From a virus: a stretch of 64,000 nucleotides of DNA. Each line of letters begins with the position of its first letter. Position 1 is the stretch's first letter. The position numbers and the translations under genes were made by a program. The stretch is taken from the IMG/VR virus record IMGVR_UViG_3300045988_109049, one strand, 5' to 3'. Below, in pieces: positions 13,942 through 39,454 of this stretch. Below the pieces are notes generated by a model that was not told the origin of the DNA, did no database searches, and saw only the letters and a list, made by a program, of their open reading frames with translations.

Positions 13942-13978
13942 TTCCTTAATTTATTTTTTTTTTACTATATTATCTTAA

Positions 13979-14296
13979 TTAATGAACCCAGTAGGTTGGA
14001 AGAGGACCATTGTCATCAAGATATTCTCTATAGCTCTTTGGTAAGTCCTTTATTTTATAAGACTGATTAGTTCTAATATTTACTAGAACATCTTCCCCCA
14101 TAGAGGCTATAATATCACCCTTAACCATAATCTTCTCTCCATTGAATTCAAAGTCTTCTATACATAACTTATGTCTAGACACATCTGCATCCAACTTTAC
14201 CCTATGGACAAAATATGCTCCAGATTTAACCATTATATCATACAGTACTTTAGCTATATCTTCTGCTATCTCTTCTGGAGCTTCGCAGTTGATTTC
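13979..14296 (-). CDS. polA: DNA polymerase family A, 3' exon (begins inside motif C)
   Basis: Exon 2 begins EINCEAPEE. Joined to exon 1 it reads ..LITVTPYD|EINCEAP, a motif-C-like (H/Y)DE. The intron-terminal G is at 14297. Confidence 0.7.
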   Translation of the reverse strand, partial: EINCEAPEEIAEDIAKVLYDIMVKSGAYFVHRVKLDADVSRHKLCIEDFEFNGEKIMVKGDIIASMGEDVLVNIRTNQSYKIKDLPKSYREYLDDNGPLPTYWVH

Positions 14297-15160: not shown

Positions 15161-17125
15161 ATCGTAGGGTGTTACAGTAATTAACACCTTGAATAATAAG
15201 TCATTACGTCTTAAGTATTCAAAAAAGTTTATCATGCTTACCTTATAACACAATGCTCCAGTATGCTGTATTCTGTAGTTGATAGATTGCTTCTCAGAAT
15301 CTACTTTCCTCTTGAAATACTCCTTAACCATCCTTACTGTATCACAGTCAGGAGAGCTAATCTTCATATCCCTATAATAATCCCAAAATCCAGGTTCTTT
15401 AAATCTAGCTCTTACCTTAGCCATCCAGTTAAAGTCGTAGATGTAAGCCTTATACCCAACTTTAGGATTAAGGAGAATATAACCTTTCTGCATAACATCT
15501 TTTCTACAGAAGTCTTGATAAGTTTTAATACCTCTAAAACCCGACATATAAGCATTATATATCTTCTTAGCCTCTTCTATAGGTATTCCCTTATTATTAG
15601 ATATAGTATTAGCATCACCTCCATAATTAATAGCAAATTCGATACCTTTAGCCTCATTCCTAAGAGAATGATACTTTTTCTTTATCTCATTTATAGGGAT
15701 ATCTCTAGGTATTTCTTTATAAGACATATATGCAGTCAAGCTATGTATATCTCCACTACCATGAATAAGCTCCTCTATAATTGCCTTATCATTAGCAATA
15801 TCAGCTAAAATATAAGTTTCTTGACCAGAATAATCAATACTTACCCACTTGTTACCATCCTCAGCTATAAAACAAGCTCTAGTTTCAGCATCAGCAGGCA
15901 TATTAAGCATGTTTATATACTCAACCTTAGCTGACTTGTCCTTACCACCTGAGCTTATCCTTGCTGTATCCGTGCCCAATGAATTAAAGTTGGTATATAG
16001 CCTTCCAGTATCCCTATCTATCTGTTTAAGTACATTTGCCCCATAGGTACTGCACAGCTTCTTCATTTCCTTATACCTTATATATAAGGGAACAAGACTG
16101 CACTTATCTTTCTGAGGACCTAGTACCTTAGCTCCTATACTGTCCTTATCCTCATCATCTTCTTTATCCAGAGCAGTGGTATCGACTCCATATTTCTTGA
16201 ATAAGGGGATAACTTGTTTAGGACTATTCCAATTGAGAGTTACCTGTGGTTCAATATTAAAACCTGAAAATAGATTACCTTGCCTATCTATCTTAATGTA
16301 TTTTGAGTCAGGCTCATGCTCTATAAGCCACTTATCCATTTCACTTTTGATACTATTAAGAACAGATTGATCATGTTCCATCTTCTTTTGCCACCTATCT
16401 CTATCTATTCTTATACCACAATAGCACATGTAAGCAATAGGAAGTATAGCCTTATTTTCATACTCCATGGCAGTAAGAAGTCCTTGCTTCTCCAATTGTT
16501 TCAGTTGTAATTCTCGTATCTTCTCAAGGTACTTTACATCATTAGCAGCATAAACTATAACATCTCCTGTAAGGCCTTTATAGATGATTTGTCCTCTTAT
16601 AGACTTATCCAGTTCTATTCCAAGGTACATTTCACCTAACTTCTTCAGATTCATATACAAGATATACTTAGCTTTCGAGCCTTTCTTGCTAGGGTCTGCT
16701 GGTATATAGTCATACCTAGAACACTGTATTTTATCCCATACTTCTGGACTTAGTACAGTAGGGTAACCCAACCACATTAATTTCTCTGCTAGAAATAAGT
16801 CATAGACATTACGAGGAACTATATGATATTTATAAAGCCACTGTAGGTCAAACTTAGCATTATGAAATAAGAAAAGCCTATCAGATTCAAGATAGTTTTC
16901 ATATAAAGTAATATCTGTAGTAAGACAATCTATTACTACTTGAAAATCAAAGCACCCTAATTGCAATGACAAGAGCTTATCCTTATGACAACTTAATCCA
17001 CTAGTCTCGGTATCAACTCCTACAATTCTAAGAGGTTTAAGTAGGGATAGACTCTCGTCTACCCCTATTATTTTGTACTTCTCAGGTTCAAATAATTCTA
17101 TATTTTTCGTAACTACATATATCAT
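15161..17125 (-). CDS. polA: DNA polymerase family A with 3'-5' exonuclease, 5' exon
   Basis: Exo I VGVDTETSGL, Exo II HNAKFDLQWL, Exo III YAANDVKYL, motif A SIDYSGQETY, motif B RNEAKGIEFAINYGG. The ORF-track stop at 15155 lies in the intron. Confidence 0.85.
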
Positions 17126-23066: not shown

Positions 23067-23641
23067 TTAAAGTCAAAACATTCTTGCGTTAGCAAATTTT
23101 GAAGCTCTTCCAATAATCCAAGAGCAATTTGGGCTTCTCTGGCAGATCTGAAAGCAGCGAAGTTTTTGTAATCCTTGATACATCCTTTTCTCAGGTTATA
23201 AACTTTCATACTAATTATATCTACCATATATATGTCAGGGCTATTACTAATATGATCTTCATAATTGGCATCTAGATCGATAGCTATTTCCCTTAAGAAC
23301 ATAGTATATAGTGAAGCTGGACAAATATTAAGTAAGGTAAAAAGGAATTCCATAGAATTCTCTTCATTTAGACTGGATTTTTGGCATATTTTCCTAAGAT
23401 AATACTCTACATCTTTTTCAGATTTAAGGGGTCCTTCTTCTAGATCTTCTCTCTCTACTATTAAACCTTTTTTAATTAGTTTACTTATGCTATTAGAAAG
23501 TACAATAAATTCTTGAATTACAGAAAAGTAATCTCCCCTACGTACTCTTCTTATAACGTCACCCATTTTTACTTCTTCACCTGCTTTAGTGTAATACCTT
23601 TTCTTATTCATATTTTTCTGTTTAATGTCAATATTCTTCAT
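23063..23641 (-). CDS. hypothetical protein
   Basis: Co-oriented ORF, overlapping starts and stops. Confidence 0.6.
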   Translation of the reverse strand: MKNIDIKQKNMNKKRYYTKAGEEVKMGDVIRRVRRGDYFSVIQEFIVLSNSISKLIKKGLIVEREDLEEGPLKSEKDVEYYLRKICQKSSLNEENSMEFLFTLLNICPASLYTMFLREIAIDLDANYEDHISNSPDIYMVDIISMKVYNLRKGCIKDYKNFAAFRSAREAQIALGLLEELQNLLTQECFDFK

Positions 23642-24119
23642 ACCATTTTATGGAATACCCATAAATATCTCTTAATTTTTTATCTATTTCATCAAATAGA
23701 TAATGAGGCATCTTTGTCCCACTCCTTGCAAAGTATGCAGGATGCTCAATTTTTAAAATGTGATTAAATCTTTTATTAATATATAGATCAAATGTTTGAG
23801 CTTGCTTACCGAATAATACATATATAATGGAACAAGAACATTCAGATAGATTCTTTAATAGTTTGGCTATGAATGGTCTCCAAACCATGACATGAGAACC
23901 TATTTTATTCATCTCCACTGTGAGGGCAGAATTAATCATTAATATACCCTGCTTGGCCCAACTCTCTAAAGTTTGGTCAAAGATAATATTATTGTGGGGA
24001 ATTTCAAAATCTATTACTGCTTCTTTTATCACTTGAAGAGAAGGAGATAAATTCTCTTCTAAGACTTCCTTCCTATTTCCAAATAATACACCAGTGGCTA
24101 TTCCTTTCTGGGGATAAGG
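23628..24119 (-). CDS. ung: uracil-DNA glycosylase family 1, 3' exon
   Basis: Begins PYPQKGIATGVLFG, then QGILMINSALTV, VLFGKQAQ, IEHPAYFA. The intron-terminal G is at 24120. The ORF-track Met is a TTG inside the intron/exon junction. Confidence 0.8.
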   Translation of the reverse strand, partial: PYPQKGIATGVLFGNRKEVLEENLSPSLQVIKEAVIDFEIPHNNIIFDQTLESWAKQGILMINSALTVEMNKIGSHVMVWRPFIAKLLKNLSECSCSIIYVLFGKQAQTFDLYINKRFNHILKIEHPAYFARSGTKMPHYLFDEIDKKLRDIYGYSIKWYEEY

Positions 24120-24260
24120 CAATTTGTTACCCTAACAGCTCTTTATCTGTTAGTTCTATATGTTACCATATAGTTCGGACTATATCTTCATTGTTTACAA
24201 TGCAGGGCACTCGTGTCAGGTTTATTATTTGAGCTATTCACCTGTTAGTCTCTGAACCTT

Positions 24261-24965
24261 CTACATACTTTTATGCTCTTCTGTAGCTTGGCTGCTGATT
24301 GACTCATTAAGTTGTTCCAGCAATTCACCCTGTTTATCCAGAACCCTTCTTTTACTATAAGTAATTAATTTATACTGCATAGATGGAATAACAAAATCTT
24401 TAATCAGCTCTACAAATTTAGGAAAATCCTTAGCTTGCAGATACATACTATTATCATGCTTGCCTACAGTAAAATGTAAATCAAATTTATCTAATAATAT
24501 ATTAGCTAATAAAGATTGTTCTTCTAAAGTAAAAGAACAAGTAGATAAGATACATGAATTTTTAGTTACATAACCATCGTCCATATACCATATAGCTAAA
24601 CCTAAAGTATCCATATCTTTTACAAATTCTTCAAAAACTCTTTTATGACCATTAGAATCATAGTATTTTAATCTTATATTTGTAAAGATAGGATGTAATC
24701 TAGATTTAAATCTATACCCTACTAATTCGTGTGAATATCTTTTATTATTTATATGATACTCAACTATAGGAGATACTAAATTATACTTATTTAGTATATT
24801 CCATTTATACTCAAGATATTCTTTTTGTTTTTCAGAATGTGCTATACTAAGACACATATTCTTAGTTTTACTTCCTACTGAACAAAAACATCCATCTCCT
24901 AATAAACTTCCTATAAGAAGTTGTTTTAAGTCATTACCCATTTCTAAATCTTTATGATTCTTCAT
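24261..24965 (-). CDS. LAGLIDADG homing endonuclease (double-motif)
   Basis: LIGSLLGDGCF and LAIWYMDDGYV. The C-terminal codons overlap intron P4-P6 and R. Confidence 0.85.
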   Translation of the reverse strand: MKNHKDLEMGNDLKQLLIGSLLGDGCFCSVGSKTKNMCLSIAHSEKQKEYLEYKWNILNKYNLVSPIVEYHINNKRYSHELVGYRFKSRLHPIFTNIRLKYYDSNGHKRVFEEFVKDMDTLGLAIWYMDDGYVTKNSCILSTCSFTLEEQSLLANILLDKFDLHFTVGKHDNSMYLQAKDFPKFVELIKDFVIPSMQYKLITYSKRRVLDKQGELLEQLNESISSQATEEHKSM

Positions 24966-24987
24966 ACTATCAAAATTTTTAATAGTA

Positions 24988-24995
24988 CAAAGATA
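24988..24995 (-). promoter_or_regulatory. Candidate -7 element TATCTTTG for the intron LAGLIDADG gene
   Basis: The minus strand reads TATCTTTG about 25 nt upstream of the start at 24965. The -33 element matches 3 of 4. Confidence 0.45.
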
Positions 24996-25053
24996 AGGTA
25001 TTTGACCTAATATTACAATACTTTAAGTAAATTATTTATAGTTACTTATTAAA

Positions 25054-25239
25054 ATCCTGTCCCAGAAACACTACCTTCAAATCCTCGAATAGACATAACT
25101 TAAAAGCCCTAAACACATCAGTTTGCTTAGGGCATACAGACTTTATCATATACTCCTTAGATAATATATTCATTACATGATTAAGCTCTACTTTATCAAT
25201 GACCTTCATCCAACCTCCAAAATATTCTTCTGTCGTCAT
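25054..25239 (-). CDS. ung: uracil-DNA glycosylase family 1, 5' exon
   Basis: Ends ..LKVVFLGQD, the first half of GQDPY. The start overlaps the upstream ORF stop by 4 nt. Confidence 0.8.
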
Positions 25240-25946
25240 TCCAGTGCTAGTAAATCGTCTATATTATTTTCTAAAAGATTATTTAGAGATTCATTTATAT
25301 CTTCACCTTGAGGTGGAGGAATAGTCTTTATGAACTCTTCAGCATTATCTATTTTAACTTCCACTTGGCTTAGGTATCCATAATCTGCCAATTCCGAAAG
25401 GAATGCAGGAATAACCCTTTTAATTATATGTTTCTCTAATATACCTGGTCTATCTAACAAGAATAGTGTCGGAGACACATGTACTACTATCTTTCTAGTA
25501 GGAGCTAACCTGCGATCCTTCAATACGTAACAGGAGTTAACCATTAGTAACATATTCATGCATCTATCTAATATTATTCCTCTGCATCCATAGTACACCT
25601 GATCTTTACAAGACACTTTACTCAAGGAGAATGAATCAAATAAGGCTCTAATTAATGAGCTATTTCCTAATGCAGTATTCTCTTTTGAGTTTAAGAACAC
25701 AGGAGTAACTATTCTACATTTTCTTGACAACAACTCATCTAACTTACTCCCAGATAGTTTAGAGAATCGGCTCCTCAGTATAGTGGGAATCTCTATATTC
25801 ATATCCTCTTTTAGAGTAGCTTCAACAAGAATTCTATACGGGTTTGTATTGTTAATTCCATATAGTGGAGGGGCAGATACTGAGGGTCCACTAATTAATA
25901 TTGCTTTGTGTAAGTCCTTTATATATTTTCCTGAAAAAATCATCAT
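25236..25946 (-). CDS. hypothetical protein, last gene of the Ubl-system operon (acidic C-terminal tail)
   Basis: ATGA-type overlaps with the E1-like gene upstream and UDG downstream. No motif recognised. Confidence 0.7.
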   Translation of the reverse strand: MMIFSGKYIKDLHKAILISGPSVSAPPLYGINNTNPYRILVEATLKEDMNIEIPTILRSRFSKLSGSKLDELLSRKCRIVTPVFLNSKENTALGNSSLIRALFDSFSLSKVSCKDQVYYGCRGIILDRCMNMLLMVNSCYVLKDRRLAPTRKIVVHVSPTLFLLDRPGILEKHIIKRVIPAFLSELADYGYLSQVEVKIDNAEEFIKTIPPPQGEDINESLNNLLENNIDDLLALE

Positions 25947-26893
25947 GATATAGTTTTAAAATACATAGTTTCTGCATTATATTCAGTATAGAACGGAAGG
26001 TCCCTGTCTATAAGTGGATTACATTTATTTGCTATAAAATTGACAAACAAATTAACTATAACGGATCCAATCATATTAGCCATAAAAGTAGTTTGTTTAT
26101 AACTGCATACAGTAGGATCGGCCTCAAAGTCTGAGAACAAATAAGGTTCATATCTTCGTATATTATCCATATCGTCTCCTTTTATACAGAACACTTGAAA
26201 TTCTTCTGCTGCCAATCTGCCATCTATAAACAGACATTCTTCTCGTCTTTCTTTGGGTAATTCTAACACCTTATCAGTCCAATTCTTAAAAGCATCTTTT
26301 CTAGCTTTCATATTATCGAACCCACAAATAGTTATTCCAGTTATGGTTGAAGAGGTATCCAGTTTTTTAGTTAAAGCTGAAACACTATAATAGTCTGAAT
26401 AATTTTCTATCATATCTGCTATAGCATTTGCCTTATAAAGACCTATTTGAGACTTACTATATAACTGTCCAGACAAATTAACTGTTTCTACCTTATCTGG
26501 GTCATATAAAGTTAGTGACCTGACATCCATTCTAGATAACATAAATACTACATAGCTTCCTATCCCTCCTAATCCAGCTACAGTAATATTTTGCTTAAGT
26601 ATCTTATCGAACCAAAGGGCAGAGCTAAATCTCGATGTTTCTTCTTTTATTAATAAGGTCTCAGAATTTTCAGGAATTTTATCTATAACCAAATCCTGAT
26701 CTATTAGTGCAGATATTAACATAGAATGTTCTTCTTCATTAAGATAAAATCTACTACCTTCTACAGTAATTTCACTAACAAATTCTCCATCCATAATAAC
26801 TTGCCTAATACTGGAAATAGCCTTTCCTTTGATTAACTCTATTAAGTCTCCTACAGGTAGTGATTCATTAGTGTTTTGATCTAAGCTTTTCAT
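25943..26893 (-). CDS. ThiF/MoeB/E1-like adenylyltransferase (ubiquitin-activating-enzyme superfamily)
   Basis: Rossmann nucleotide loop VAGLGGIGSYVVFMLSR, then LYDPDKVETVNLSGQLY (E1 pattern D.D.V...NL.RQ) and GFDNMKARK (DN...R). Confidence 0.75.
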   Translation of the reverse strand: MKSLDQNTNESLPVGDLIELIKGKAISSIRQVIMDGEFVSEITVEGSRFYLNEEEHSMLISALIDQDLVIDKIPENSETLLIKEETSRFSSALWFDKILKQNITVAGLGGIGSYVVFMLSRMDVRSLTLYDPDKVETVNLSGQLYSKSQIGLYKANAIADMIENYSDYYSVSALTKKLDTSSTITGITICGFDNMKARKDAFKNWTDKVLELPKERREECLFIDGRLAAEEFQVFCIKGDDMDNIRRYEPYLFSDFEADPTVCSYKQTTFMANMIGSVIVNLFVNFIANKCNPLIDRDLPFYTEYNAETMYFKTIS

Positions 26894-26908
26894 ATTATCA
26901 TTTCTCCT

Positions 26909-28093
26909 TTAAAAAATATAATCACTTAATATTTTAATACATTCTTCTATGTATATATTACTATCAAGCTTCTCTAATTCTTCTTTGATTGCAGTAGCAC
27001 ATAATGTAACTATCTCATCATTATCCACTCCTTGTCCAACCAAATCCTCATCTATTGTATACCAACACAGGAATTCTATAAATCCTTCAGCCCACTTCTT
27101 GAACATCTCCAGTCCTTCTTCTCCCTTCCCAAATCTTCTTTCATATATAGGTATCATTCCTGCTACCCAAGATTTTATATTTATTTTACTTTCTCTAGGG
27201 ATAACCACACTTCCTGTTACCAATTGAAGGGTTAAAGACTTTGCCAGACCTTTATTAAAACTATACTTCTTTGTATCATCTCTAAATTTTAAAGTCTGCT
27301 GTCTCTGACCTAAATCATCTTCTTCCATTAGATTATATATATCCTTTTGTGTCAATGGTTCAAACTTGGAAAAAGGCTTATACGTGTGAAGAGGAGGATC
27401 AAATCTACTATTTATTTTCTGAATCTTAGACTCCTCTATCTCTTTAAGTCTGGATTCTAACTCTGTATATTCACTACACCCTTCTACTTCTATATCAAGA
27501 TAGTAATATTCCAATTCCTCAGTATTAGTTCCTTCAAAATTTCGAACTTCCTTGATTTGGGTGTTACCAAAACTAGGATAGCAGAAACTTTCCACAATAC
27601 ACTTGTTAACCAATCTTCTAGTTATGGCTGCTGTATAATTCCCTCTATTATTAACTATTAAGGAAACAAAGTGATTTCTATCCAATCCTTCCTCTTTCAG
27701 AGTTCTTATATCTGTTCCACTGAAGAAGGTATCCATGTTATTATGTGAATGGATTAATCCCATATGACAATCTAGCAGCTCAGGGTTGTTCGCTACATAA
27801 CTGCATACATCAGGAGACATATCAAACTCCGTATAAGCAGAACTTCCGATATCCATAACACATATATCTTCACATTTTATGATTAGACTTCTATCTTCAA
27901 AGGATCCCTCAGATGTAAAAAATAGAACTCCAGACCACTCATCTTTCCATACCTTTCTACATATGTATCTTATTTTTTCTTCTACTTTCTTCGGTATTAT
28001 CATTTTATAAGTAGTAGAATTCTTGGTCATCTGAATTATTTGTTCCTCTGCTTTTTTCTGACTCATCTCTGAGACTTGATTTATTCCTTCCAT
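26909..28093 (-). CDS. JAB/MPN+ (JAMM) metalloprotease with a C-terminal extension of about 200 aa
   Basis: Exact JAMM motif HSHNNMDTFFSGTD (HxHx7Sx2D), with an upstream Glu in KDEWSGVLFF. An alternative ATG at 28003 lies 1 nt after the upstream stop (TAAAATG) and would remove the 89-nt overlap. Confidence 0.8.
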   Translation of the reverse strand: MEGINQVSEMSQKKAEEQIIQMTKNSTTYKMIIPKKVEEKIRYICRKVWKDEWSGVLFFTSEGSFEDRSLIIKCEDICVMDIGSSAYTEFDMSPDVCSYVANNPELLDCHMGLIHSHNNMDTFFSGTDIRTLKEEGLDRNHFVSLIVNNRGNYTAAITRRLVNKCIVESFCYPSFGNTQIKEVRNFEGTNTEELEYYYLDIEVEGCSEYTELESRLKEIEESKIQKINSRFDPPLHTYKPFSKFEPLTQKDIYNLMEEDDLGQRQQTLKFRDDTKKYSFNKGLAKSLTLQLVTGSVVIPRESKINIKSWVAGMIPIYERRFGKGEEGLEMFKKWAEGFIEFLCWYTIDEDLVGQGVDNDEIVTLCATAIKEELEKLDSNIYIEECIKILSDYIF

Positions 28094-29318
28094 ATTTACA
28101 ATTTACTAATTTTAATATTCTATTCAATAAAAAACCTATTATATCTGGATTTAAGATGGTAGTAACATAATTATTAATATTATCTCCTTCTGTTATATGA
28201 ACTACTACTTCTTTCCCCTTAAATGTGCCCATCACTCCTAGATTAGATCTATTAATCTCTAAAACATCCCGGGTATTAGTAATTCTGTAAATACTATCCT
28301 TAAATACAAATACCTTGGTTAAAATATTTTCTAGAGACTCTTCCTCTTTTCTTATAATTCCTTTTTGATATATATATCTTCCTTTGGTATTAAACCAAGT
28401 GATAAATTCATTACTTACTAGTAGTATAAATTTCGTTATATTCATACCAATAGAGTAACCCCCATTTTTGTAATTGAAGATAAGTTTTTTCTGTTCTATG
28501 AAATATTTAATGAAATCATAAACCATAGGCTTCAAACATGATGGTATATATACCGAATCATTAAGACCGATATGATCTGTTTTAACACTTCTGTTAGAAG
28601 CCACCTCCTCTAATCTCCTATAAGGACCTCCACTTAGGGATTCTGTTGCTACATACTTCTCCAATTCTACACAAAACAGTCTCCAAATATCCAAATCATA
28701 AAGAACATTCAAGGAATTTACTGTATTTCTTATAGGACCACTTCCCAAACATACTTGAAGAAACTCTTTAGGGTTCCTCTTTGGTATTCCACATACATGG
28801 GAATGCATATAGTCACAAAAATACTGTGTCATTGTATATTCCCCTCTATTAAGAAGGAAGGATCCTACCATAGTACCGTCCATATCTATTGTTACTTTGA
28901 CATATAGTTCAGTAATATCTATAAAATGATCATATTCATTACTAACTCTTACTTCTGGGAAATATACTATGATGTGAGACTGTATCTTACTCCCTAATTT
29001 CAATATTACCTCATCCAGAAGATCCCTAATGCTAGGGATACTACTTAGAATTTCATCAGGTATGTCCTTTATTAATTGTATATTAGACATTTTTTTCTTT
29101 AACCTGGATGACTCCTCAGTGCCCAGTGCTGTTTCAATACTTATATTATCATAAGTTTTCGAGAATTCCTCTTCTATTTCTGAAATGGTAGGAACATCTT
29201 GTAAGTCTACCTTATCTTCTCCAAAGAAATCTTCGAATATTTCTAATACACTTGTTATATTTCGTAAACGTTCCTTACATATTGCTTCTATAACTTTCCT
29301 AGTTTTTTCCCCTATCAT
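28005..29318 (-). CDS. hypothetical protein, first gene of the JAB/E1 operon (candidate E2-like or nucleotidyltransferase-like partner)
   Basis: Clean 437-aa ORF. The segment YMHSHVCGIPKRNPKEFLQVCLGSGPIRNTVNSLNVLYDLDIW could be read as an HPN..C-like E2 motif or as a GS..DxD NTase motif. Neither reading is secure. Confidence 0.7.
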   Translation of the reverse strand: MIGEKTRKVIEAICKERLRNITSVLEIFEDFFGEDKVDLQDVPTISEIEEEFSKTYDNISIETALGTEESSRLKKKMSNIQLIKDIPDEILSSIPSIRDLLDEVILKLGSKIQSHIIVYFPEVRVSNEYDHFIDITELYVKVTIDMDGTMVGSFLLNRGEYTMTQYFCDYMHSHVCGIPKRNPKEFLQVCLGSGPIRNTVNSLNVLYDLDIWRLFCVELEKYVATESLSGGPYRRLEEVASNRSVKTDHIGLNDSVYIPSCLKPMVYDFIKYFIEQKKLIFNYKNGGYSIGMNITKFILLVSNEFITWFNTKGRYIYQKGIIRKEEESLENILTKVFVFKDSIYRITNTRDVLEINRSNLGVMGTFKGKEVVVHITEGDNINNYVTTILNPDIIGFLLNRILKLVNCKYGRNKSSLRDESEKSRGTNNSDDQEFYYL

Positions 29319-29328
29319 ATCATATAAT

Positions 29329-29361
29329 AAAAAAAAAGCAGGTAAGAAGAATCTTACCTGC
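29329..29361 (-). terminator. Intrinsic terminator after the Ubl-like gene
   Basis: Minus strand GCAGGUAAG-loop-CUUACCUGC followed directly by U9. Confidence 0.8.
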
Positions 29362-29378
29362 TAGTAAACAAACCTTTA

Positions 29379-30008
29379 TCAAACAAAATCAAACATTTCA
29401 TCAATCTCATCATCTGAGTAGGTGGAGAGCTCTTTTTTTGGCTTTACAGTGTTAGAGAAGTACTTACCATTAAGAATATTAGTAGCCTCCTCTCTTTCCA
29501 AAATTTCAGCATCTACCAAAGAGTCTAATAGGCATTTAATAGAGGTTTTCAATGAAGTTACTTCTTTCTCTAAATCACCTTTAGGAGCTTCTTTCTTAGA
29601 TGTAGAACCGTGATGCTCTTCAACCAGTTTCAGAAGATCTTCAGATTTACACAGAGTATAATTTTTCCCGTACTTTCTAATACAGGCATCCTCCAAGTGA
29701 TATTCTTTTATACTATTGTAAATCTCTTTTCTATTTACAGCTCCAGATCTAATCTTTTTATTAGGAGAAGTCAACATGAACACAAGCTCATTAGTAGTCT
29801 GTCCTTTATAAAGGACATCATGAGGAAGAATAGAATCATTATTGATTAATTCAGTTTTTGAAAGTCCTTCATAGAATGTCATGTCATGATAATTTACGCC
29901 TGATCTATCCAGATCTCTCTTCAGTTCCCCTAATGTAGTAGCACTAGACATAATTACTTTTTTCTCTTGTGTTCTCGTAGATACGATTGTGATTTTTCTT
30001 GCTTCCAT
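29379..30008 (-). CDS. candidate ubiquitin-like (beta-grasp) protein with a C-terminal HeH/SAP-like and acidic region
   Basis: The first roughly 89 aa (KITIVS..KKVIMSS..TLGELKRDLDRSG..MTFYEG..ELVFMLTSPNKKIRSG) have a beta-beta-alpha-beta-beta pattern like ubiquitin. YTLCKSEDLLKLVEEH looks HeH-like. Confidence 0.45.
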   Translation of the reverse strand: MEARKITIVSTRTQEKKVIMSSATTLGELKRDLDRSGVNYHDMTFYEGLSKTELINNDSILPHDVLYKGQTTNELVFMLTSPNKKIRSGAVNRKEIYNSIKEYHLEDACIRKYGKNYTLCKSEDLLKLVEEHHGSTSKKEAPKGDLEKEVTSLKTSIKCLLDSLVDAEILEREEATNILNGKYFSNTVKPKKELSTYSDDEIDEMFDFV

Positions 30009-30052: not shown

Positions 30053-31054
30053 TTATTTTTCGAATAATTCTTTCATTATTTTAATGAAGTCATTCTTGTC
30101 TTGAAGAGAATGATAAAGGCCTGATATATCATTATCTCCTTCGAATTTAGGTAATATCAAATTAGTAAATCCTGTGGATTTAGCCAGTTTCTCCCCATCT
30201 ATAAGTCCTGCTTCATCATTATCAAATAATATGAATATCCTTTTATACCTTCTTTTAAGCTCATTAATAGCTGTGTTGCTTATTCTATAGCCTTCTCCCT
30301 GAACAGCTAAGGATGGAATTCCGGTATTAGCCCATAAGCAAAGAGCGTCTTTTACAGAAGAACATATGCATACTGAATCTCCATATTCAGGTATTTTTGT
30401 CCACAAACTAATTACAGACAAGTCATGTTTGTTACTCCATTTATAACCATCTTTGTTAAATGGTTGGTAAATCTTCAAAGTAACCTTTCCTTCTTTACGT
30501 TCTACATACGCATAGGCATATTTATCTGCTGCATACACTCTTCTCACTCCATCCTTTATCACGATCTTATGAGATATAGGATAAACATCAGCATATTTTA
30601 ACCATTCCAGACTCACTCCAAAGGATTCCCAGTACTCTATATCATGTTTCCTCCACTCTCTTATTTTGCATTGTAAGTCAATTGACTTATTATAACTTTT
30701 AGTAGTAATTATACTGCAGGAATTATAAGGTCTTATATTAGAATTATTAGAGAATCTAAGCATATCCTTATCTATTCTTTCTAAAACTTCTACATATGAT
30801 ATCCCCCATAGTTTAGACAGAAGGTCAAATAATCCTCCTCTGTCTCCTGTAGATAAATCAACATAAAATATTCTCTTTCCATCTCTAGAGTATAACCCAA
30901 AAGAAGGTCTTTTATCTTCTCTGAGAGGAGAATTTATTATACAAGGTATTTCAGTGATACCCAAATAAAAGTATAGAATACTAGATTCTGTTGTTTTCTT
31001 CAATATGTCCTCTAAGCTAATTGAAGATCTTCCAGAAATAAATGGCATATTCAC
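30053..31054 (-). CDS. DNA primase (Toprim domain)
   Basis: Toprim-like ICSSVKDALCLW..AVQGEGY and ILFDNDEAGL (DxD). Confidence 0.65.
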   Translation of the reverse strand: MNMPFISGRSSISLEDILKKTTESSILYFYLGITEIPCIINSPLREDKRPSFGLYSRDGKRIFYVDLSTGDRGGLFDLLSKLWGISYVEVLERIDKDMLRFSNNSNIRPYNSCSIITTKSYNKSIDLQCKIREWRKHDIEYWESFGVSLEWLKYADVYPISHKIVIKDGVRRVYAADKYAYAYVERKEGKVTLKIYQPFNKDGYKWSNKHDLSVISLWTKIPEYGDSVCICSSVKDALCLWANTGIPSLAVQGEGYRISNTAINELKRRYKRIFILFDNDEAGLIDGEKLAKSTGFTNLILPKFEGDNDISGLYHSLQDKNDFIKIMKELFEK

Positions 31055-31073: not shown

Positions 31074-32000
31074 TTATTTATCAAACCACGGAGAGGATTG
31101 CATTGGCATGTCAAAAGGAGATCCTGTCTGGGTCAAGTCATTATTGAAGTCAGTCGGTTCTATTGTGTACTCCTTTAAATCACAGACTTCAAATTCTGTA
31201 GTAGGATAAGCTCCAGCGGCTTTTCTGTTTTGAAGTTCTTCATCCAGTTTGCTATAATCTGCTACACTATTCTTCAGGAACTTTTGAACATAAACAGCTT
31301 GATACTGTTTGCCATCTTCAGTAGTTCTTACTCCGAATAGACCTTTGACTCTGTTCTTAGGCTGCAAAGAGATTGCTTCTTTCAATTCTGAATAATCTCC
31401 TTTGAAATAATTTTCAATCTTATCCAATCTAGCTTCCGCATCAGCTTTATTAGGAAGTTCTACCACTTCTCCATTGGATTTTCTATAGGATTTATTAGGA
31501 ATATTTAAATATGCCTTCAAGAATCCTGTAAGATCCTCTTCCCCTATATAAGCTGGCCTAAAATCAGCAGGTTCGAACCAATTAAGATTGGATGGAATAG
31601 TGCCAGATTTTGCATTTTCTATAGGCAGCCAAGTAGTTTCTCCATATTTATTTATTACTTGGACTTTGCTTCCATCTCTGTTATATCTAACCTCCCTGGC
31701 AATGAAGAAAGATATTTTAGTTTTCATATCAATTCCATTGCATTTCTCAGGGTCTGTCTGTACAATAAAATCTATTCTTACTTGAGGAACAGTATGTTTA
31801 TCACCTTCTGGACCAACTTCAACTTCACTTAAATATGAAGGACCATCATTAATAGTGGTATTATACAATTTTTCTAGTGTTTCCTTATCAGGATTAACAG
31901 CTAATACACCTACTGAGCCTACTCCAATATACTTTTTAACTACACTACCTTCTGTAGATTCACTACCCGTAGCAAAAGCCATAAAAATCTTGTTTGTCAT
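31074..32000 (-). CDS. putative single-stranded DNA-binding protein (T7 gp2.5-like class)
   Basis: Position between primase and helicase genes, and an acidic/aromatic C-terminal tail (..DFNNDL..PFDMPMQSSPWFDK). The call rests on context. Confidence 0.4.
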   Translation of the reverse strand: MTNKIFMAFATGSESTEGSVVKKYIGVGSVGVLAVNPDKETLEKLYNTTINDGPSYLSEVEVGPEGDKHTVPQVRIDFIVQTDPEKCNGIDMKTKISFFIAREVRYNRDGSKVQVINKYGETTWLPIENAKSGTIPSNLNWFEPADFRPAYIGEEDLTGFLKAYLNIPNKSYRKSNGEVVELPNKADAEARLDKIENYFKGDYSELKEAISLQPKNRVKGLFGVRTTEDGKQYQAVYVQKFLKNSVADYSKLDEELQNRKAAGAYPTTEFEVCDLKEYTIEPTDFNNDLTQTGSPFDMPMQSSPWFDK

Positions 32001-32026
32001 ATTTAATATTCTCTTTATATAATGTT

Positions 32027-32062
32027 AATAACAATAATAATAATAATAACAATAATAATAAT
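32027..32062. repeat. Exact 18-nt tandem duplication (aataacaataataataat x2) in the intergenic spacer
   Basis: Read directly: 32027-32044 equals 32045-32062. Confidence 0.9.
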
Positions 32063-32071
32063 AAATTTTGT

Positions 32072-32503
32072 TTATACAAATTCTTTCAAGGTAGGTCCTT
32101 GAACATTCTGCTCTTTATCTTCATGATCTATTTCTACAGGATTTGCTACAGAAGCTACTACAGGATCTGAGAAGACTTCATCATGAATCTCATATACCTT
32201 CTTCTCCTCATTGAATACTACTATATTCGACTTTGGTTCATATTTAGTTATTTTGATGGGTTTCCCGTTTCTATCCATCTTGCCAGTGTCCTCTACTACT
32301 CTAGTTATGAGCTCTTCACTAGAATGTCCAGTAAGTATTCTTACTCCAACTTCATGACCCTCTATCTCATTGATCAGATCTTCACATTCTTTGTTCAATT
32401 CTCTTATTTGCTCCAACAATTTATTCTTCTTGGTAACTAAGGAGCTTACATTTTGTGCTACTCTTTTCACAGTAGCTAGTTGTCTAATTGAAATTGTTTT
32501 CAT
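32072..32503 (-). CDS. hypothetical protein (N-terminal coiled coil)
   Basis: Co-oriented ORF. Confidence 0.6.
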   Translation of the reverse strand: MKTISIRQLATVKRVAQNVSSLVTKKNKLLEQIRELNKECEDLINEIEGHEVGVRILTGHSSEELITRVVEDTGKMDRNGKPIKITKYEPKSNIVVFNEEKKVYEIHDEVFSDPVVASVANPVEIDHEDKEQNVQGPTLKEFV

Positions 32504-33278: not shown

Positions 33279-33992
33279 CTATGCGTTACACTGTGCAGTC
33301 CTTTTATCTACTGCATTTAGCACGGTATTAAGTGCTTTATCCCTTTTTCTTTTCAAAAACACTGTAGCATCTTTATACAGATAGTCAAAGATAGCTTTTC
33401 TTACTTTTATACTATAACTAAAATGTAAACTCCAATAGGGAGTGGTCTTTCTATTCTCTTTATAGATTACCCATTTTAGTTCAGGTATAGCTGTTAAAAA
33501 CCTATCTTTAATTTGCTCTGCAAATTTAGGTGAGTTACAAATCATACTGAAATGTCTATCACCAATAGACCCATCTCCATCCATAAAACCTCTTATGAAA
33601 TCTCTTTCATACTCCTGAGGTATATTAGGAAATTCAAAATCAGAATCATAAGTTTTTCTTGGTTGTATATTATATAAAGACCTTAAATCATTTATAAGTT
33701 CCTTATCACATATTTGAAGAATAGTAGTTTGTTTCCTATTACCACTAGGTTGATAATATCTAAGATTGTTATCAGGAGCTATCTCTCTCTGTATTAATCT
33801 TAAAATTTCATCATCTTCAGATACACATCCAAATCTCAATCTTATTAATTTACTAGGTCTGTCTTTTCTTACTGATTCTTCTATAGAACCATCAGCTACT
33901 AAATAGCCTAAAATATAGGCTTTAACTTCAGAGTCGATTATTTTAAAATAATCACTTTTGTGTTCCTTCTTATTAGGAATAAAGTCTCTCAT
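33279..33992 (-). CDS. LAGLIDADG homing endonuclease (double-motif)
   Basis: ILGYLVADGSI and FIRGFMDGDGSI. Confidence 0.85.
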   Translation of the reverse strand: MRDFIPNKKEHKSDYFKIIDSEVKAYILGYLVADGSIEESVRKDRPSKLIRLRFGCVSEDDEILRLIQREIAPDNNLRYYQPSGNRKQTTILQICDKELINDLRSLYNIQPRKTYDSDFEFPNIPQEYERDFIRGFMDGDGSIGDRHFSMICNSPKFAEQIKDRFLTAIPELKWVIYKENRKTTPYWSLHFSYSIKVRKAIFDYLYKDATVFLKRKRDKALNTVLNAVDKRTAQCNA

Positions 33993-38914: not shown

Positions 38915-39454
38915 TTACCAAACAGTCTGTATTCTTTCTCTTAGCTGTTTATTATTACAGCATATATAGTTAAAGAGCTTACTAATGGTTTTATATGTAT
39001 CATAAATACCACATAAATCCCCTCCCTTTTCATCTAGTTCGTTTGATACACACAGCATATCCAATTTGTTCTTTGGAGCTTCCATAGTATTCAACACTTG
39101 ATTAGTTAATTCGATTACAGTATTTCCTGAAGATATAAAATCATCTACCATTATGACAGGAGAATTAGTCGGAATACAAAGAGATCGTCCCTCATGATGA
39201 CTTCTTGGAAATCCATATACCACAACATCTCTTCCCATTTCTACCAGTTTGGTAGCTATTCCACCTAACAATATATTTCCAGATCTATTAGTTCCGACTA
39301 AATATAATGTTCCTATCTTCTTATCATATGCTTTCAAAATGTTCTGAACTACACTATGTATATAATCAACGTTCAACATAAAGTATTCCCCAGTAGGGTA
39401 AGTGCAATCTACATATTTGTCATAGTATAGTAACTTTGCATTAGTTGTTTTCAT
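38915..39454 (-). CDS. type I phosphoribosyltransferase
   Basis: PRPP-binding loop VIMVDDFISSGNT. Confidence 0.7.
   Translation of the reverse strand: MKTTNAKLLYYDKYVDCTYPTGEYFMLNVDYIHSVVQNILKAYDKKIGTLYLVGTNRSGNILLGGIATKLVEMGRDVVVYGFPRSHHEGRSLCIPTNSPVIMVDDFISSGNTVIELTNQVLNTMEAPKNKLDMLCVSNELDEKGGDLCGIYDTYKTISKLFNYICCNNKQLRERIQTVW

What the first reader, a model, noticed from the sequence alone, without database searches (positions are those of the whole stretch)
25236..30008. Phage-borne ubiquitin-like conjugation/deconjugation cassette: E1-like ThiF, JAMM/MPN+ protease, candidate Ubl and two unknown partners, inside the replication module
**Seen in the sequence**
- A 316-aa protein carries the E1/ThiF/MoeB adenylation signature (GLGGIGS, then D.DKVETVNLSGQ, then DNMKARK).
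- Directly upstream is a protein with a perfect JAMM motif (HSHNNMDTFFSGTD) and the upstream catalytic Glu.
- The genes run 437 aa, JAB, E1, 236 aa, UDG. Their junctions are TAAAATG, a 15-nt gap and two ATGA overlaps, so this looks like one operon.
- A separately terminated gene just upstream (29379-30008) has a ubiquitin-like N-terminal pattern.

**Established knowledge**
- E1+JAB(+E2)+Ubl gene sets were predicted in prokaryotes by Iyer, Burroughs and Aravind.
- They were later shown to act in bacterial anti-phage defence (CBASS Cap2/Cap3, Bil/Bub systems).
- E1+JAB+ThiS-like sets also do sulfur transfer (CysO/Mec+, QbsE/QbsD).

**Inference**
- Here the set is on the phage side. It could modify phage or host proteins during infection.
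- It could strip host Ubl conjugates from virion proteins, acting against Bil-type defence.
- It could act as a sulfur carrier for nucleotide or DNA thiolation.
- I know of no characterised crAss-like phage system of this kind.
Basis: partly seen in the sequence, partly recalled or inferred. Interest (0 to 1): 0.92.

Follow-up and report, generated by a model that had tools for sequence, protein, structure and literature searches.

The report
Phage-encoded ubiquitin-like activation cassette
A group of abundant human-gut crAss-like phages carries its own five-gene set built around a ubiquitin-like protein, an E1-type activating enzyme and a JAMM protease, machinery so far characterised in bacteria only as anti-phage defence or sulfur transfer; its target is unknown, but it can be tested directly in cultured phages such as crAss001.

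Summary
Five minus-strand genes lie between the primase and UDG genes.

- **Pro-Ubl, 209 aa:** the predicted N-terminal 80 residues form a ubiquitin-type β-grasp. A floppy tail follows and ends in KKIRSG.
- **p437, 437 aa:** phage-restricted, with no detectable fold relatives. Ser-His, Cys and Glu-Ser are invariant.
- **JAMM/MPN+ peptidase:** all catalytic residues are present.
- **Minimal ThiF/UBA5-like E1:** it has an invariant crossover-region Cys, but the canonical NxxRQ arginine is replaced by Gly.
- **Fifth protein, 236 aa:** fast-evolving.

The order Ubl–p437–JAB–E1 is kept in essentially every untruncated locus of 166 examined. These include crAss001, DAC15 and Flavobacterium phages. 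Gly89 of the Ubl is invariant (137/137). In three phages a homing-endonuclease gene splits the Ubl gene two codons after that Gly.

Best reading: JAB exposes Gly89 and the E1 activates it for transfer. Protein conjugation is favoured; sulfur carriage is not excluded. No E2 fold could be confirmed, and the target is unknown.

In crAss001 the genes are annotated only as "thiamine biosynthesis protein" and "metalloprotease domain". I found no paper describing the system.

Verdict: a new phage-borne variant of the known prokaryotic Ubl/E1/JAB systems, of high interest.

The parts
29379..30008 (-). Pro-Ubl gene (209 aa). It encodes an N-terminal β-grasp domain, a 3-helix region, a variable linker, a further helical region and an acidic C-terminal tail (…SDDEIDEMFDFV).
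   Evidence: ORF. More than 5,105 homologues. AF2 model with pLDDT 77. The top 50 Foldseek PDB hits all belong to the ubiquitin superfamily, with probability 0.87-1.00.
29742..30008 (-). Ubl domain proper (residues 1-89). The β-grasp spans 4-80 and a disordered tail spans 81-89, ending KKIRSG. The predicted JAB cleavage and E1 activation site is after Gly89 (codon 29742-29744).
   Evidence: Translation. pLDDT is below 50 for residues 83-90. Gly89 is invariant in 137/137 and Ser88 is present in 128/137 aligned unique sequences. In L016, L021 and L033 a homing-endonuclease gene splits the gene two codons after the Gly.
29337..29362 (-). Intrinsic-terminator-like hairpin (11-bp stem, 9 T) between the Ubl gene and the enzyme genes. 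It may act as an attenuator that sets a high Ubl-to-enzyme ratio.
   Evidence: A hairpin (ΔG ≤ -7) plus a T5 run lies within 90 nt of the Ubl stop in 116 of 152 related loci (no shuffled control).
28005..29318 (-). p437, a phage-restricted protein of unknown fold. The conserved core is residues about 95-240, with invariant Ser173-His174, Cys190-x-Gly192 and Glu226-Ser227-x-x-Gly230. It is a candidate downstream acceptor, ligase or effector.
   Evidence: Alignments. Invariance in 143/143. AF2 model with pLDDT 73.7. No significant PDB fold match. BFVD returns only crAss orthologues. 2,503 clusters in 1.84 billion representatives. Only 5 MAG contigs among 185,579 species genomes.
26909..28093 (-). 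JAMM/MPN+ (Prok-JAB) zinc peptidase with a roughly 230-aa C-terminal extension of unknown function. The conserved domain starts at the ATG at 28003. The true start is probably the ATG at 28093.
   Evidence: Pfam PF14464, 27.8 bits. Weak PDB sequence hits to Rpn11-like protein and JAMM1. Glu22, His85, His87, Ser95 and Asp98 are invariant in every sequence aligned at those columns (144-147 of 154 unique). Motif at 27710-27751.
25943..26893 (-). Minimal E1-like adenylyltransferase (316 aa). It has a variable N-terminal extension (1-85), a Rossmann/ThiF core, and an invariant Cys263 (codon 26105-26107) in the crossover region. There are no CxxC zinc motifs, and Gly142 replaces the canonical Arg.
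   Evidence: Pfam ThiF 6.7e-18. NCBIfam ThiF models reach 1e-19, all below cutoff. PADLOC Cap2 models (labelled E1-E2 in PADLOC) and BilD match only the Rossmann part. PDB UBA5 6e-7. Invariants. Cys codon.
25236..25946 (-). Fifth gene (236 aa). It is fast-evolving and always lies directly after the E1 gene, usually overlapping it. The only conserved motif is YYG-x-x-G-x-[IL]-x-D. Function unknown.
   Evidence: Only 8 close homologues. Gly123 and Asp127 are the only internal invariant residues across 7 genera. Positional orthologues with a similar G-x-G…D motif occur after E1 in divergent loci. No Pfam or PDB match.
30053..31054 (-). DnaG-type primase, the upstream flank of the cassette.
   Evidence: PHROG DNA primase 1.7e-41 and Toprim Pfam hits.
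23628..25239 (-). Uracil-DNA glycosylase, the downstream flank. It is interrupted by a group I intron. Exon 1 is 25054-25239, the intron is 24120-25053 and exon 2 is 23628-24119.
   Evidence: Pfam UDG. Rfam RF00028, 85.9 bits. The spliced product aligns without gaps to the uninterrupted cr128_1 UDG.

Best explanation
This is a self-contained, phage-encoded ubiquitin-like protein (Ubl) processing and activation module. It is expressed with the DNA-replication genes of Steigviridae-type crAss-like phages.

**Shown**
- The 209-aa gene encodes a ubiquitin-fold domain. Its flexible tail ends in an invariant Ser-Gly and is followed by a separable C-terminal part.
- The next genes encode a catalytically intact JAMM zinc peptidase and a minimal ThiF/UBA5-like E1 with an invariant crossover-region cysteine.
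- Two phage-specific proteins complete the set: p437, with invariant Ser-His, Cys and Glu-Ser, and a fast-evolving fifth protein.
- The five genes are inherited as a block.

**Inferred mechanism**
1. The Ubl gene is transcribed in excess, because a terminator-like hairpin separates it from the enzyme genes.
2. The JAB peptidase cuts the precursor immediately after Gly89. This releases an 89-residue Ubl and a helical fragment with an acidic tail. In phages where a homing endonuclease has split the gene, JAB would trim a 2-residue extension instead.
3. The E1 dimer binds the Ubl, adenylates the Gly89 carboxylate with ATP, and probably takes it onto Cys263 as a thioester.
4. The Ubl is passed on, most plausibly to Cys190 of p437 acting in an E2-like or ligase role, and from there to lysines of target proteins.
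5. JAB can also reverse the modification.

**Speculative**
The targets are unknown. The position between primase and UDG, and the acidic tail of the released fragment, suggest phage or host replication and repair proteins, or host defence proteins.
For: **The three known components**
- E1 fold and ATP-site residues. The GxGGxG motif is near-invariant (third Gly in 139 of 150 aligned). Asp131, Asp133, Lys154, Asp193, Arg198, Arg226 and Cys263 are invariant in 150 aligned unique sequences. Arg88 is in 149 of 150 and Asn139 in 151 of 152.
- JAMM residues are invariant.
- Ubl fold: the AF2 topology is β-β-α-β…β followed by a disordered tail. All top 50 PDB Foldseek hits are ubiquitin, SUMO, UBX or DIX-type domains, with target-normalised TM-score 0.15-0.72.

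**The activation site**
- Gly89 is invariant in 137/137, including a divergent lineage where the tail reads …KDGKQG.
- Natural gene fission: in L016, L021 and L033 an HNH homing-endonuclease gene sits exactly at the junction. ORF1 ends …KSG-KF or …RSG-IC, and ORF2 carries the rest. The two parts therefore work as separate polypeptides.

**Linkage of the genes**
- Strict co-occurrence: 77, 74 and 74 of 50,697 phage records, with the same organism breakdown apart from two weak Moraxella-phage E1 hits.
- The order Ubl-p437-JAB-E1 is conserved in 166 loci.
- Overlapping or tightly spaced enzyme genes.
- Conserved hairpin after the Ubl gene.

**Experimental precedent**
- The BubCD JAB domain cleaves a Ubl-fusion precursor immediately after its conserved Gly (PMC11601596).
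- A predicted precedent is phage lambda TAPI, a Ubl with a conserved C-terminal Gly plus an extra C-terminal domain next to a JAB (PMC1779556).
Against: - No biochemical data exist.
- No E2/UBC fold was detected in p437. Foldseek against PDB gave a best E of 0.54. hhalign against classical E2s gave 0.35% probability. Pfam and PDB profile searches found nothing.
- The E1 lacks the conserved Arg of the NxxRQ motif (Gly142) and has no zinc-binding CxxC pairs. Its chemistry may therefore deviate from the canonical.
- The tail ends Ser-Gly rather than Gly-Gly.
- The Ubl is normally embedded in a larger protein, so it could be a non-cleaved adaptor domain.
- PADLOC, NCBIfam and Pfam models for Bil, Cap3 or PRTRC partners do not match any protein other than the E1.
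Confidence: 0.55

Rival explanations
1. Sulfur-carrier system. The processed Ubl is adenylated by the E1 and converted to a C-terminal thiocarboxylate, as in ThiS, MoaD, CysO, QbsE and TtuB. It then donates sulfur to a nucleotide, DNA base or cofactor made during replication. p437 would be the sulfur-inserting enzyme.
For: - The E1's best curated matches are ThiF models (NCBIfam PRK08644 9.5e-20, TIGR02354 2.7e-16).
- E1+JAB+small Ubl triads do sulfur transfer in QbsCDE and CysO/Mec+ (own knowledge; discussed in PMC1779556).
- The invariant E1 Cys263 could carry an acyl-persulfide.
- The cassette sits among nucleotide-metabolism genes: UDG, RNR, dUTPase and ThyX.
Against: - All ThiF model scores are far below their cutoffs and cover only the Rossmann half.
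- The tail is Ser-Gly, not the Gly-Gly I recall for known sulfur carriers (own knowledge).
- No rhodanese, cysteine desulfurase, PP-loop or radical-SAM protein was found in the cassette or in the 20 other replication-module ORFs scanned.
- p437 has no known sulfurtransferase motif.
Confidence: 0.12
2. Counter-defence device aimed at host Ubl-based immunity (type II CBASS Cap2/Cap3, Bil, Bub). The phage JAB strips host Ubl or CD-NTase conjugates. The phage Ubl and E1 act as decoys or competitors for the host E1/E2 machinery rather than building functional conjugates of their own.
For: - The phage E1 Rossmann region resembles Cap2 and BilD models (PADLOC 8.5e-13 and 8.8e-8).
- Bil and CBASS use exactly these enzyme classes against phages (PMC11601596; PMC13276650).
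- A 2026 preprint noted in passing a gut-phage family matching UBA5 as a possible phage homologue of defence proteins (10.64898/2026.03.05.709809).
Against: - A decoy role does not explain the invariance of every catalytic residue in both enzymes or of Gly89.
- It does not explain the presence of two further conserved phage-specific proteins.
- The cassette is part of the core replication block in all members of the lineage, not a variable accessory island.
- No sequence similarity to Cap3, BilC or BilA was found.
Confidence: 0.1
3. The β-grasp is a permanent adaptor domain, like UBX or other integral Ubl domains, of a replication-associated protein. The E1-like and JAB proteins act on something else, for example a peptide or nucleic-acid substrate as the E1-like enzymes MccB, PaaA and TcdA do.
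For: - PDB sequence matches of the E1 include TcdA (2.3e-5), MccB (2.6e-5) and PaaA (3.8e-4) beside UBA5.
- The top Foldseek hit of the Ubl model is a UBX domain. DIX, RBD and FERM-type non-conjugated domains are also among the hits.
- The canonical ATP-site Arg is missing.
- The Ubl is fused to further domains in most genomes.
Against: - It does not explain the invariant Gly at the end of a disordered tail.
- It does not explain the gene fission exactly there in three phages.
- It does not explain the one-to-one co-occurrence and adjacency of the Ubl gene with E1 and JAB across very divergent phages.
Confidence: 0.13

Closest known systems
Prokaryotic Ubl + JAB + E1 + E2 + α-helical-protein operons (Iyer, Burroughs & Aravind 2006, operon type 6d; NCBIfam also carries a 'PRTRC system' ThiF model, TIGR03736)
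   Same: - Five-component set with a small Ubl, a separate JAB, a separate short E1 and two further proteins.
- Carried on mobile elements and reported also in Bacteroides (PMC1779556).
- The NCBIfam PRTRC_ThiF model hits the phage E1 at 5e-9.
   Different: - The score is 35.8 bits against a cutoff of 144.75.
- No PRTRC, Prok-E2 or Prok_Ub model matches the other four proteins.
- Here the Ubl is fused to a C-terminal module.
- The E2 slot is occupied by a 437-aa protein with no detectable UBC fold.
- The genes sit in a lytic phage replication module.
Type I Bub (6E) pathway: BubAB / BubCD / BubE
   Same: - The Ubl is made as a fusion precursor.
- A JAB domain cuts it immediately after a conserved Gly to create the E1 substrate.
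- The E1 is a minimal UBA5/ThiF-like homodimer type (PMC11601596).
   Different: - Bub has JAB-E1 and Ubl-E2 fusions, a DUF6527 serine protease, and no catalytic cysteines (it uses oxyester intermediates).
- The phage genes are separate.
- The E1 and p437 each have an invariant Cys.
- The Ubl's fusion partner is a helical protein with an acidic tail, not an E2.
Bil (BilABCD) anti-phage system
   Same: It combines Ubl, E2, JAB and E1, and conjugates a Ubl to proteins during infection.
   Different: [quoted passage not shown] The phage E1 is a single short domain.
- The only match is a partial BilD hit (8.8e-8, Rossmann part). BilA, BilB and BilC give none.
- Bil is encoded by the host as defence. 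This cassette is on the phage.
Type II CBASS Cap2 (E1-E2) / Cap3 (JAB)
   Same: An E1 adenylation domain and a JAB act as an antagonistic pair. These are the best PADLOC matches of the phage E1 (down to 8.5e-13).
   Different: - The matches cover only about 80-90 residues of the Rossmann fold.
- There is no fused E2 and no CD-NTase.
- The substrate in CBASS is the CD-NTase C-terminus, not a β-grasp Ubl.
Phage lambda/T1 tail assembly proteins TAPI (Ubl) and TAPK (JAB + NlpC/P60)
   Same: A phage-encoded β-grasp with a conserved Gly at its end, fused through a linker to a C-terminal domain. It lies next to a JAB that is predicted to release it (PMC1779556).
   Different: - There is no E1 in the lambda set.
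- Its context is tail assembly, not replication.
- There is no sequence relationship.
UBA5-UFM1 (eukaryotic minimal E1 and its Ubl)
   Same: - UBA5 is the best solved-structure sequence match of the phage E1 (6e-7).
- From own knowledge: UBA5 is a single-domain homodimeric E1 with its Cys in the crossover loop; UFM1 ends in a single Gly (Val-Gly) and is made with a 2-residue extension that a protease removes. This resembles the …SG-KF and …SG-IC split forms.
   Different: - Processing in UFM1 is by cysteine proteases, not a JAMM enzyme.
- UBA5 keeps the NxxR arginine and a zinc site.
- A dedicated E2 (UFC1) with a UBC fold exists.

Membership tests
E1 / ThiF / MoeB superfamily (PF00899) | Profile match above the curated threshold | tested here: met
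   PF00899: 65.1 bits against a cutoff of 28.1, E=6.7e-18, residues 96-201.
E1 / ThiF / MoeB superfamily (PF00899) | Nucleotide-binding GxGxxG, ribose/Mg Asp residues, Lys and N-terminal Arg | tested here: met
   Gly107, Gly109, Asp131, Asp133, Lys154, Asp193 and Arg198 are invariant in 150 aligned unique sequences. Gly110 is in 139 of 150 and Arg88 in 149 of 150.
E1 / ThiF / MoeB superfamily (PF00899) | Conserved Arg of the N-x-x-R-Q motif | tested here: not met
   Gly142 aligns with the UBA5 Arg. Across the family the position is 140 Gly, 9 Asn and 1 Val, never Arg.
E1 / ThiF / MoeB superfamily (PF00899) | Cysteine in the crossover region for a thioester or persulfide | tested here: met
   Cys263 is invariant in 150/150. 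Its placement in the crossover loop is inferred from the alignment, not from a structure.
E1 / ThiF / MoeB superfamily (PF00899) | ATP-dependent adenylation of a C-terminal carboxylate | not testable with these tools
   Needs biochemistry.
JAMM/MPN+ metallopeptidases (Prok-JAB PF14464) | Profile match above the curated threshold | tested here: met
   27.8 bits against a cutoff of 25, E=2.4e-6. This is marginal but supported by the motif.
JAMM/MPN+ metallopeptidases (Prok-JAB PF14464) | Glu … His-x-His-x7-Ser-x2-Asp zinc and catalytic motif | tested here: met
   Glu22, His85, His87, Ser95 and Asp98 are invariant in every sequence aligned at those columns (144-147 of 154 unique).
Conjugatable ubiquitin-like modifiers | β-grasp (ubiquitin) fold | tested here: met
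   AF2 model with pLDDT 79-93 over residues 1-80. The top 50 Foldseek PDB hits are all ubiquitin superfamily, with probability 0.87-1.00. No sequence-profile hit.
Conjugatable ubiquitin-like modifiers | Flexible C-terminal tail ending in Gly that is, or becomes, the free C-terminus | tested here: inconclusive
   The tail at 83-90 is disordered and Gly89 is invariant. The Gly is internal in most genomes. Three genomes have a stand-alone Ubl with only 2 extra residues. Cleavage has not been shown.
Conjugatable ubiquitin-like modifiers | Genomic linkage to an E1 | tested here: met
   The same locus in 166 loci and matching phyletic distribution.
Conjugatable ubiquitin-like modifiers | Isopeptide conjugates on targets | not testable with these tools
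   Needs proteomics.
E2 / UBC fold (for p437) | UBC fold: helix, four-strand β-meander, Cys loop, helices | tested here: inconclusive
   The order of secondary structure in the model (H95-111, E114-126, E132-144, E150-158, E160-162, loop carrying His-Ser-His and Cys190, H195-205, H209-223) resembles it. Foldseek gave no E2 hit (best E 0.54) and hhalign against UBE2D2, UBC9 and UBC13 gave 0.35% probability. The loop region has pLDDT 58-68.
E2 / UBC fold (for p437) | Match to UQ_con or Prok-E2 profiles | tested here: not met
   No such hit for 7 full-length or 35 diverse core sequences, even at E ≤ 10.
Bil system (BilABCD) | BilA, BilB and BilC homologues, and a BilD with IAD-AAD-CYS architecture | tested here: not met
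   The only match is a partial BilD hit (8.8e-8, residues 98-201). No hits for the other four proteins. The E1 is 316 aa with a single adenylation domain.
Type II CBASS (Cap2/Cap3) | E1-E2 fusion protein, Cap3, CD-NTase and effector | tested here: not met
   The Cap2 models align only to about 80-90 residues of the Rossmann part. There is no E2 fusion, and the JAB has no PADLOC hit.
PRTRC-type ThiF system (NCBIfam TIGR03736) | Curated PRTRC_ThiF score and PRTRC partner proteins | tested here: not met
   35.8 bits against a cutoff of 144.75. No NCBIfam hit for the other four proteins.
ThiS/MoaD-type sulfur carriers | C-terminal Gly-Gly and an associated sulfur donor or acceptor enzyme | tested here: not met
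   The tail is Ser-Gly (128/137 Ser). No rhodanese, desulfurase or PP-loop protein in the cassette or in 20 neighbouring ORFs. This lowers the sulfur reading but does not exclude it.

The most novel reading that the evidence does not exclude
A lytic bacteriophage lineage encodes a complete, autonomous protein-conjugation pathway. The Ubl is released from a precursor by a JAMM protease and activated by a stripped-down E1. It is then transferred by a previously unknown, phage-specific enzyme family (p437; invariant Ser-His, Cys and Glu-Ser) that replaces the UBC-fold E2. The pathway would modify replication, repair or host-immunity proteins during infection. This would be the first virus-of-bacteria 'ubiquitination' system and would define a new class of Ubl-transfer enzyme.
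Probability: 0.3. Interest if true: 0.92.

Novelty: new variant of a known kind. Interest (0 to 1): 0.8.

Why it matters
- **Side of the arms race.** Prokaryotic Ubl/E1/JAB machinery has been characterised as sulfur-transfer chemistry and, since 2023-24, as bacterial anti-phage immunity (CBASS Cap2/Cap3, Bil, Bub). Here the same toolkit sits on the virus side. It lies in the core replication block of a lineage that includes cultured crAss-like gut phages (crAss001, DAC15/17, PhiCrAssBcn) and fish-pathogen Flavobacterium phages.
- **Scale.** The lineage is large: 410 IMG/VR contigs carry the E1, and p437 has 2,503 clusters at 50% identity.
- **Current annotation.** The genes are labelled 'thiamine biosynthesis protein', 'metalloprotease domain' or 'hypothetical'.
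- **If it conjugates proteins.** It would be a new mode of phage control over host or phage proteins, and p437 would be a new kind of Ubl-handling enzyme.
- **If it carries sulfur.** It would point to an unknown thio-modification.
- **Testability.** Either way it can be tested immediately with existing phage-host pairs.

Tried and rejected
**1. p437 as an E2.**
- Foldseek of the full AF2 model against PDB gave nothing (best E 0.54). BFVD returned only orthologues.
- The profile against PDB sequences found only spurious YbbR and L32 matches.
- Pfam on 7 full-length and 35 diverse core sequences at E ≤ 10 found nothing.
- The E2 idea survives only as a resemblance in secondary-structure order.
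- Weak recurrent EndoG or DNA/RNA-nuclease hits (probability ≤ 0.38) were judged to be noise.

**2. SAP/HeH domain after the Ubl.** I read residues 93-128 as SAP/Rho_N-like by eye. Pfam on 25 members gave no SAP, HeH or Rho_N hit, so I describe it only as a 3-helix region.

**3. Membership in Bil, Cap2/Cap3 or PRTRC.** Rejected.

**4. The fifth protein.** No Pfam or PDB relative. The enolase hit at E=0.005 was judged spurious.

**5. Reaching remote cellular relatives of p437.**
- The 1.84-billion-protein profile search lists only its best 150 hits, and all were full-length orthologues.
- The genome scan returned 5 MAG contigs that look like mis-binned phage.

**6. Domain fusions as Rosetta-stone evidence.** None in 166 loci.

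**7. Literature.**
- Searches for crAss001+ThiF, Crassvirales+ubiquitin, crAss-like+ubiquitin, crAss001 gp76-79, and phage-encoded+ubiquitin-like+JAB found no description of the system.
- Two early searches were wasted on 'crass' matching Crassostrea and N. crassa.
- The PMC id I guessed for Yutin et al. 2018 is not held, so that paper was not checked.

Full report
**1. What is in the sequence**

The region is part of the minus-strand replication module of a crAss-like phage.
- The nearest GenBank record is uncultured phage cr128_1 (Crassvirales, Steigviridae, Asinivirinae, Mahlunavirus). It is 75.7% identical in nucleotide sequence over 61% of the query.
- The junctions are confirmed: TAAAATG, a 15-nt gap and two ATGA overlaps.
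- A strong hairpin plus T-run at 29337-29362(-) lies between the 209-aa gene and the rest.
- One correction concerns the JAB start. The reading frame is open upstream to an ATG at 28093. Four homologues start with an upstream 'ME…', and crAss001 has no Met at the internal position. The gene therefore probably overlaps the end of the 437-aa gene.

**2. The two enzymes are real and look active**

*E1*
- It matches Pfam ThiF at 6.7e-18, well above threshold.
- It matches NCBIfam ThiF models, PADLOC Cap2 models (labelled E1-E2 in PADLOC) and BilD only over the Rossmann half, and always below curated cutoffs.
- Its best solved relatives are UBA5 (6e-7), TcdA and MccB.
- I aligned 152 unique sequences from 166 loci. 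Of these, 150 align across the catalytic core. In those 150, Asp131, Asp133, Lys154, Asp193, Arg198, Arg226 and Cys263 are invariant. The GxGGxG glycines and Arg88 are near-invariant, and Asn139 is in 151 of 152.
- The family deviates from the canon in two ways. The Arg of NxxRQ is replaced (140 Gly, 9 Asn, 1 Val), and there are no CxxC zinc pairs.

*JAB*
- It passes the Prok-JAB threshold narrowly (27.8 against 25 bits).
- It has the full Glu…HxHx7Sx2D motif, invariant in every homologue aligned at those columns.

**3. The 209-aa protein carries a ubiquitin fold with an invariant glycine on a floppy tail**

- No sequence profile recognises it.
- An AlphaFold model built on 25 homologues gives β(4-10)-β(16-21)-α(26-36)-β(44-47)…β(75-80) at pLDDT 79-93. 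A disordered stretch follows at 83-90 (…NKKIRSG), then helices.
- All 50 best Foldseek PDB matches are ubiquitin-superfamily domains: UBX, ubiquitin, SUMO, DIX and RBD. Probability is 0.87-1.00 and target-normalised TM-score is 0.15-0.72.
- Gly89 is present in 137 of 137 aligned unique sequences and Ser88 in 128. A very divergent lineage, found by inspection, keeps the Gly as …KDGKQG.
- After the Gly come a conserved 3-helix region, a variable low-complexity linker, another helical region and an acidic tail ending …SDDEIDxMFxF. By my own reading the tail resembles the protein-interaction tails of single-strand-binding proteins. That is an inference.

**4. A natural experiment at the predicted cleavage site**

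- In three IMG/VR phages (L016, L021, L033) the gene is split in two.
- ORF1 ends …NKKIKSG-KF or …KKIRSG-IC. ORF2 starts MNTNN-MTR.EAY… and carries the rest.
- A free-standing HNH/NUMOD4-type homing-endonuclease gene sits between them. I assigned that type by reading its sequence, not from a profile search. No group I intron was detected there by Rfam.
- The β-grasp and the C-terminal part can therefore function as separate polypeptides.
- The stand-alone Ubl carries only a two-residue extension past the Gly. That is the arrangement seen in Ubl precursors that a protease trims (UFM1 and QbsE, from my own knowledge).

**5. The five genes are one inherited unit**

- tblastn against 50,697 phage records finds the E1 in 77, the Ubl protein in 74 and p437 in 74.
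- The organism breakdown for the Ubl protein and p437 is Bacteroides 29, Flavobacterium 29, uncultured 12 and four singletons. The E1 search adds two weak Moraxella-phage hits and one further record.
- GenBank annotations show the same order in five more genomes: cr128_1, crAss001 (gp79-gp75), DAC15, cr111_1 and Dulem virus 41. In Flavobacterium phage FpV4 the UDG gene lies on the other side.
- I fetched 160 more loci from IMG/VR, where 410 contigs encode the E1, and scored them with family HMMs.
- Of the 166 loci, 152 contain Ubl and p437 together with JAB and E1, always in the order Ubl-p437-JAB-E1.
- Most of the other 14 are cut by contig ends.
- Three full-length loci of a divergent lineage (plus a fourth, related locus cut at its upstream end) have a β-grasp-like 182-aa protein that the HMM missed.
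- No fusions were seen.
- The fifth gene is always present directly after the E1 gene, but it evolves fast. Only a YYG..G..[IL].D-type motif persists.
- A hairpin plus T-run follows the Ubl gene in 116 of 152 loci (no shuffled control).

**6. The 437-aa protein is a new, phage-restricted family**

- It has 2,503 clusters at 50% identity in 1.84 billion representatives.
- Only 5 hits appear in one-genome-per-species bacterial and archaeal contigs. All are MAG contigs, and two are of phage-like size.
- Across 143 unique sequences, Ser173, His174, Cys190, Gly192, Glu226, Ser227 and Gly230 are invariant.
- The AF2 model (pLDDT 73.7) has an N-terminal helical domain and a core: helix, four strands, a long loop carrying His-Ser-His and Cys190, then two helices. 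A disordered stretch and a C-terminal α/β domain follow.
- That order recalls the UBC fold with its His…Cys active site, as Iyer et al. used to recognise bacterial E2s.
- Every test I could run failed to confirm it.
- I therefore treat 'E2-like acceptor' as the most economical role, not as a finding.

**7. Mechanism**

The best-supported chain has five steps:
1. Abundant pro-Ubl is made.
2. JAB cleaves after Gly89.
3. The E1 adenylates Gly89, probably followed by a thioester on Cys263.
4. The Ubl is handed to p437 (Cys190) or directly to targets.
5. JAB reverses the modification.

Step 2 has a direct experimental precedent. The JAB domain of BubCD cuts the BubAB Ubl-fusion immediately after its conserved Gly (PMC11601596). 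It also has a predicted phage precedent in lambda TAPI/TAPK (PMC1779556).

Steps 3-5 are inference from family knowledge.

Points against:
- The missing Arg in the E1.
- Ser-Gly rather than Gly-Gly.
- No confirmed E2.
- No data on targets.

Rivals:
- Sulfur-carrier reading: the best models are ThiF, and the neighbours are nucleotide-metabolism genes. Against it, there is no Gly-Gly and no sulfur-donor or acceptor enzyme in the cassette or in 20 further ORFs scanned.
- Pure counter-defence or decoy role.
- The Ubl as a permanent adaptor domain, with E1 and JAB acting on another substrate.

**8. Comparison with known systems and novelty**

- The cassette works like the Ubl+JAB+E1+E2(+extra protein) operons of Iyer et al. 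(type 6d) and like Bil and Bub.
- It fails the membership tests for Bil, Cap2/Cap3, Bub and PRTRC.
- In crAss001 the E1 and JAB were annotated in 2018 as 'thiamine biosynthesis protein, ThiF' and 'contains metalloprotease domain'.
- A 2026 preprint notes in passing a gut-phage protein family resembling UBA5.
- I found no paper in the held library that describes the Ubl, the five-gene unit or its conservation. The library is incomplete, and Yutin et al. 2018 could not be read.
- I rate it a new, phage-borne variant of a known kind of system. One component (p437) may be categorically new.

**9. Limits**

- Only two structure predictions were allowed, so the JAB C-terminal domain, the fifth protein and complexes were not modelled.
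- The p437 core could not be searched on its own.
- The terminator statistic has no shuffled control.
- All functional statements beyond fold and motif are inference.

Noticed in passing
window 23628-25239 (-): The UDG gene is interrupted inside its catalytic GQD|PYP motif by a 934-nt group I intron (24120-25053; Rfam RF00028, 85.9 bits at 24156-24403). The intron carries a LAGLIDADG homing-endonuclease ORF (24261-24965). The spliced product aligns without gaps to the uninterrupted cr128_1 UDG.
   Followed up: yes
window 41326-41595 (-) and 537-780 (-): Two more group I introns pass the Rfam gathering score (86.0 and 54.4 bits). The host genes were not identified.
   Followed up: no
window 13513-17125 (-): The family A DNA polymerase ORF (15155-17125, 656 aa) matches only positions 29-333 of the 381-position Pfam model. 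A second LAGLIDADG ORF (14364-15062) and a 142-aa ORF (13513-13941) follow directly, so the polymerase may also be split by a mobile element. No intron was called there by Rfam at gathering score. A third LAGLIDADG-like ORF lies at 33279-33992, next to the DnaB-like helicase.
   Followed up: no
L016 3478-3995, L021, L033 (IMG/VR contigs): An HNH/NUMOD4-type homing-endonuclease gene (type assigned by reading the sequence) is inserted exactly after the Ser-Gly codons of the Ubl gene. In L016 the endonuclease has an in-frame TGA where L033 has the conserved Trp (MEI*KD… against MENWK…). This is either a decaying gene or TGA read as Trp.
   Followed up: partly
window 42419-42491, 42646-42718 (-) and 47272-47343 (+): There are two tRNA-Arg(TCT) genes 155 nt apart. 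A third tRNA is called by Rfam (53.8 bits) but not by ARAGORN.
   Followed up: no
window 10257-10784 (-), 6703-7458 (-), 38915-39454 (-): The replication module contains a SocA/Panacea antitoxin-like domain protein (1.5e-7), a VWA-domain protein (1.9e-10) and a weak PRTase-CE match (1.7e-4, below cutoff). These may be defence or counter-defence genes.
   Followed up: no
window 1399-5751 (-): A 1,450-aa ORF with no Pfam match at E ≤ 0.001.
   Followed up: no
window about 32020-32060: A run of about 12 AAT codons (poly-Asn in the spurious + strand ORF 31994-32170) lies in the intergenic region upstream of the 308-aa gene at 31074-32000. It is a possible microsatellite or AT-rich regulatory region.
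   Followed up: no
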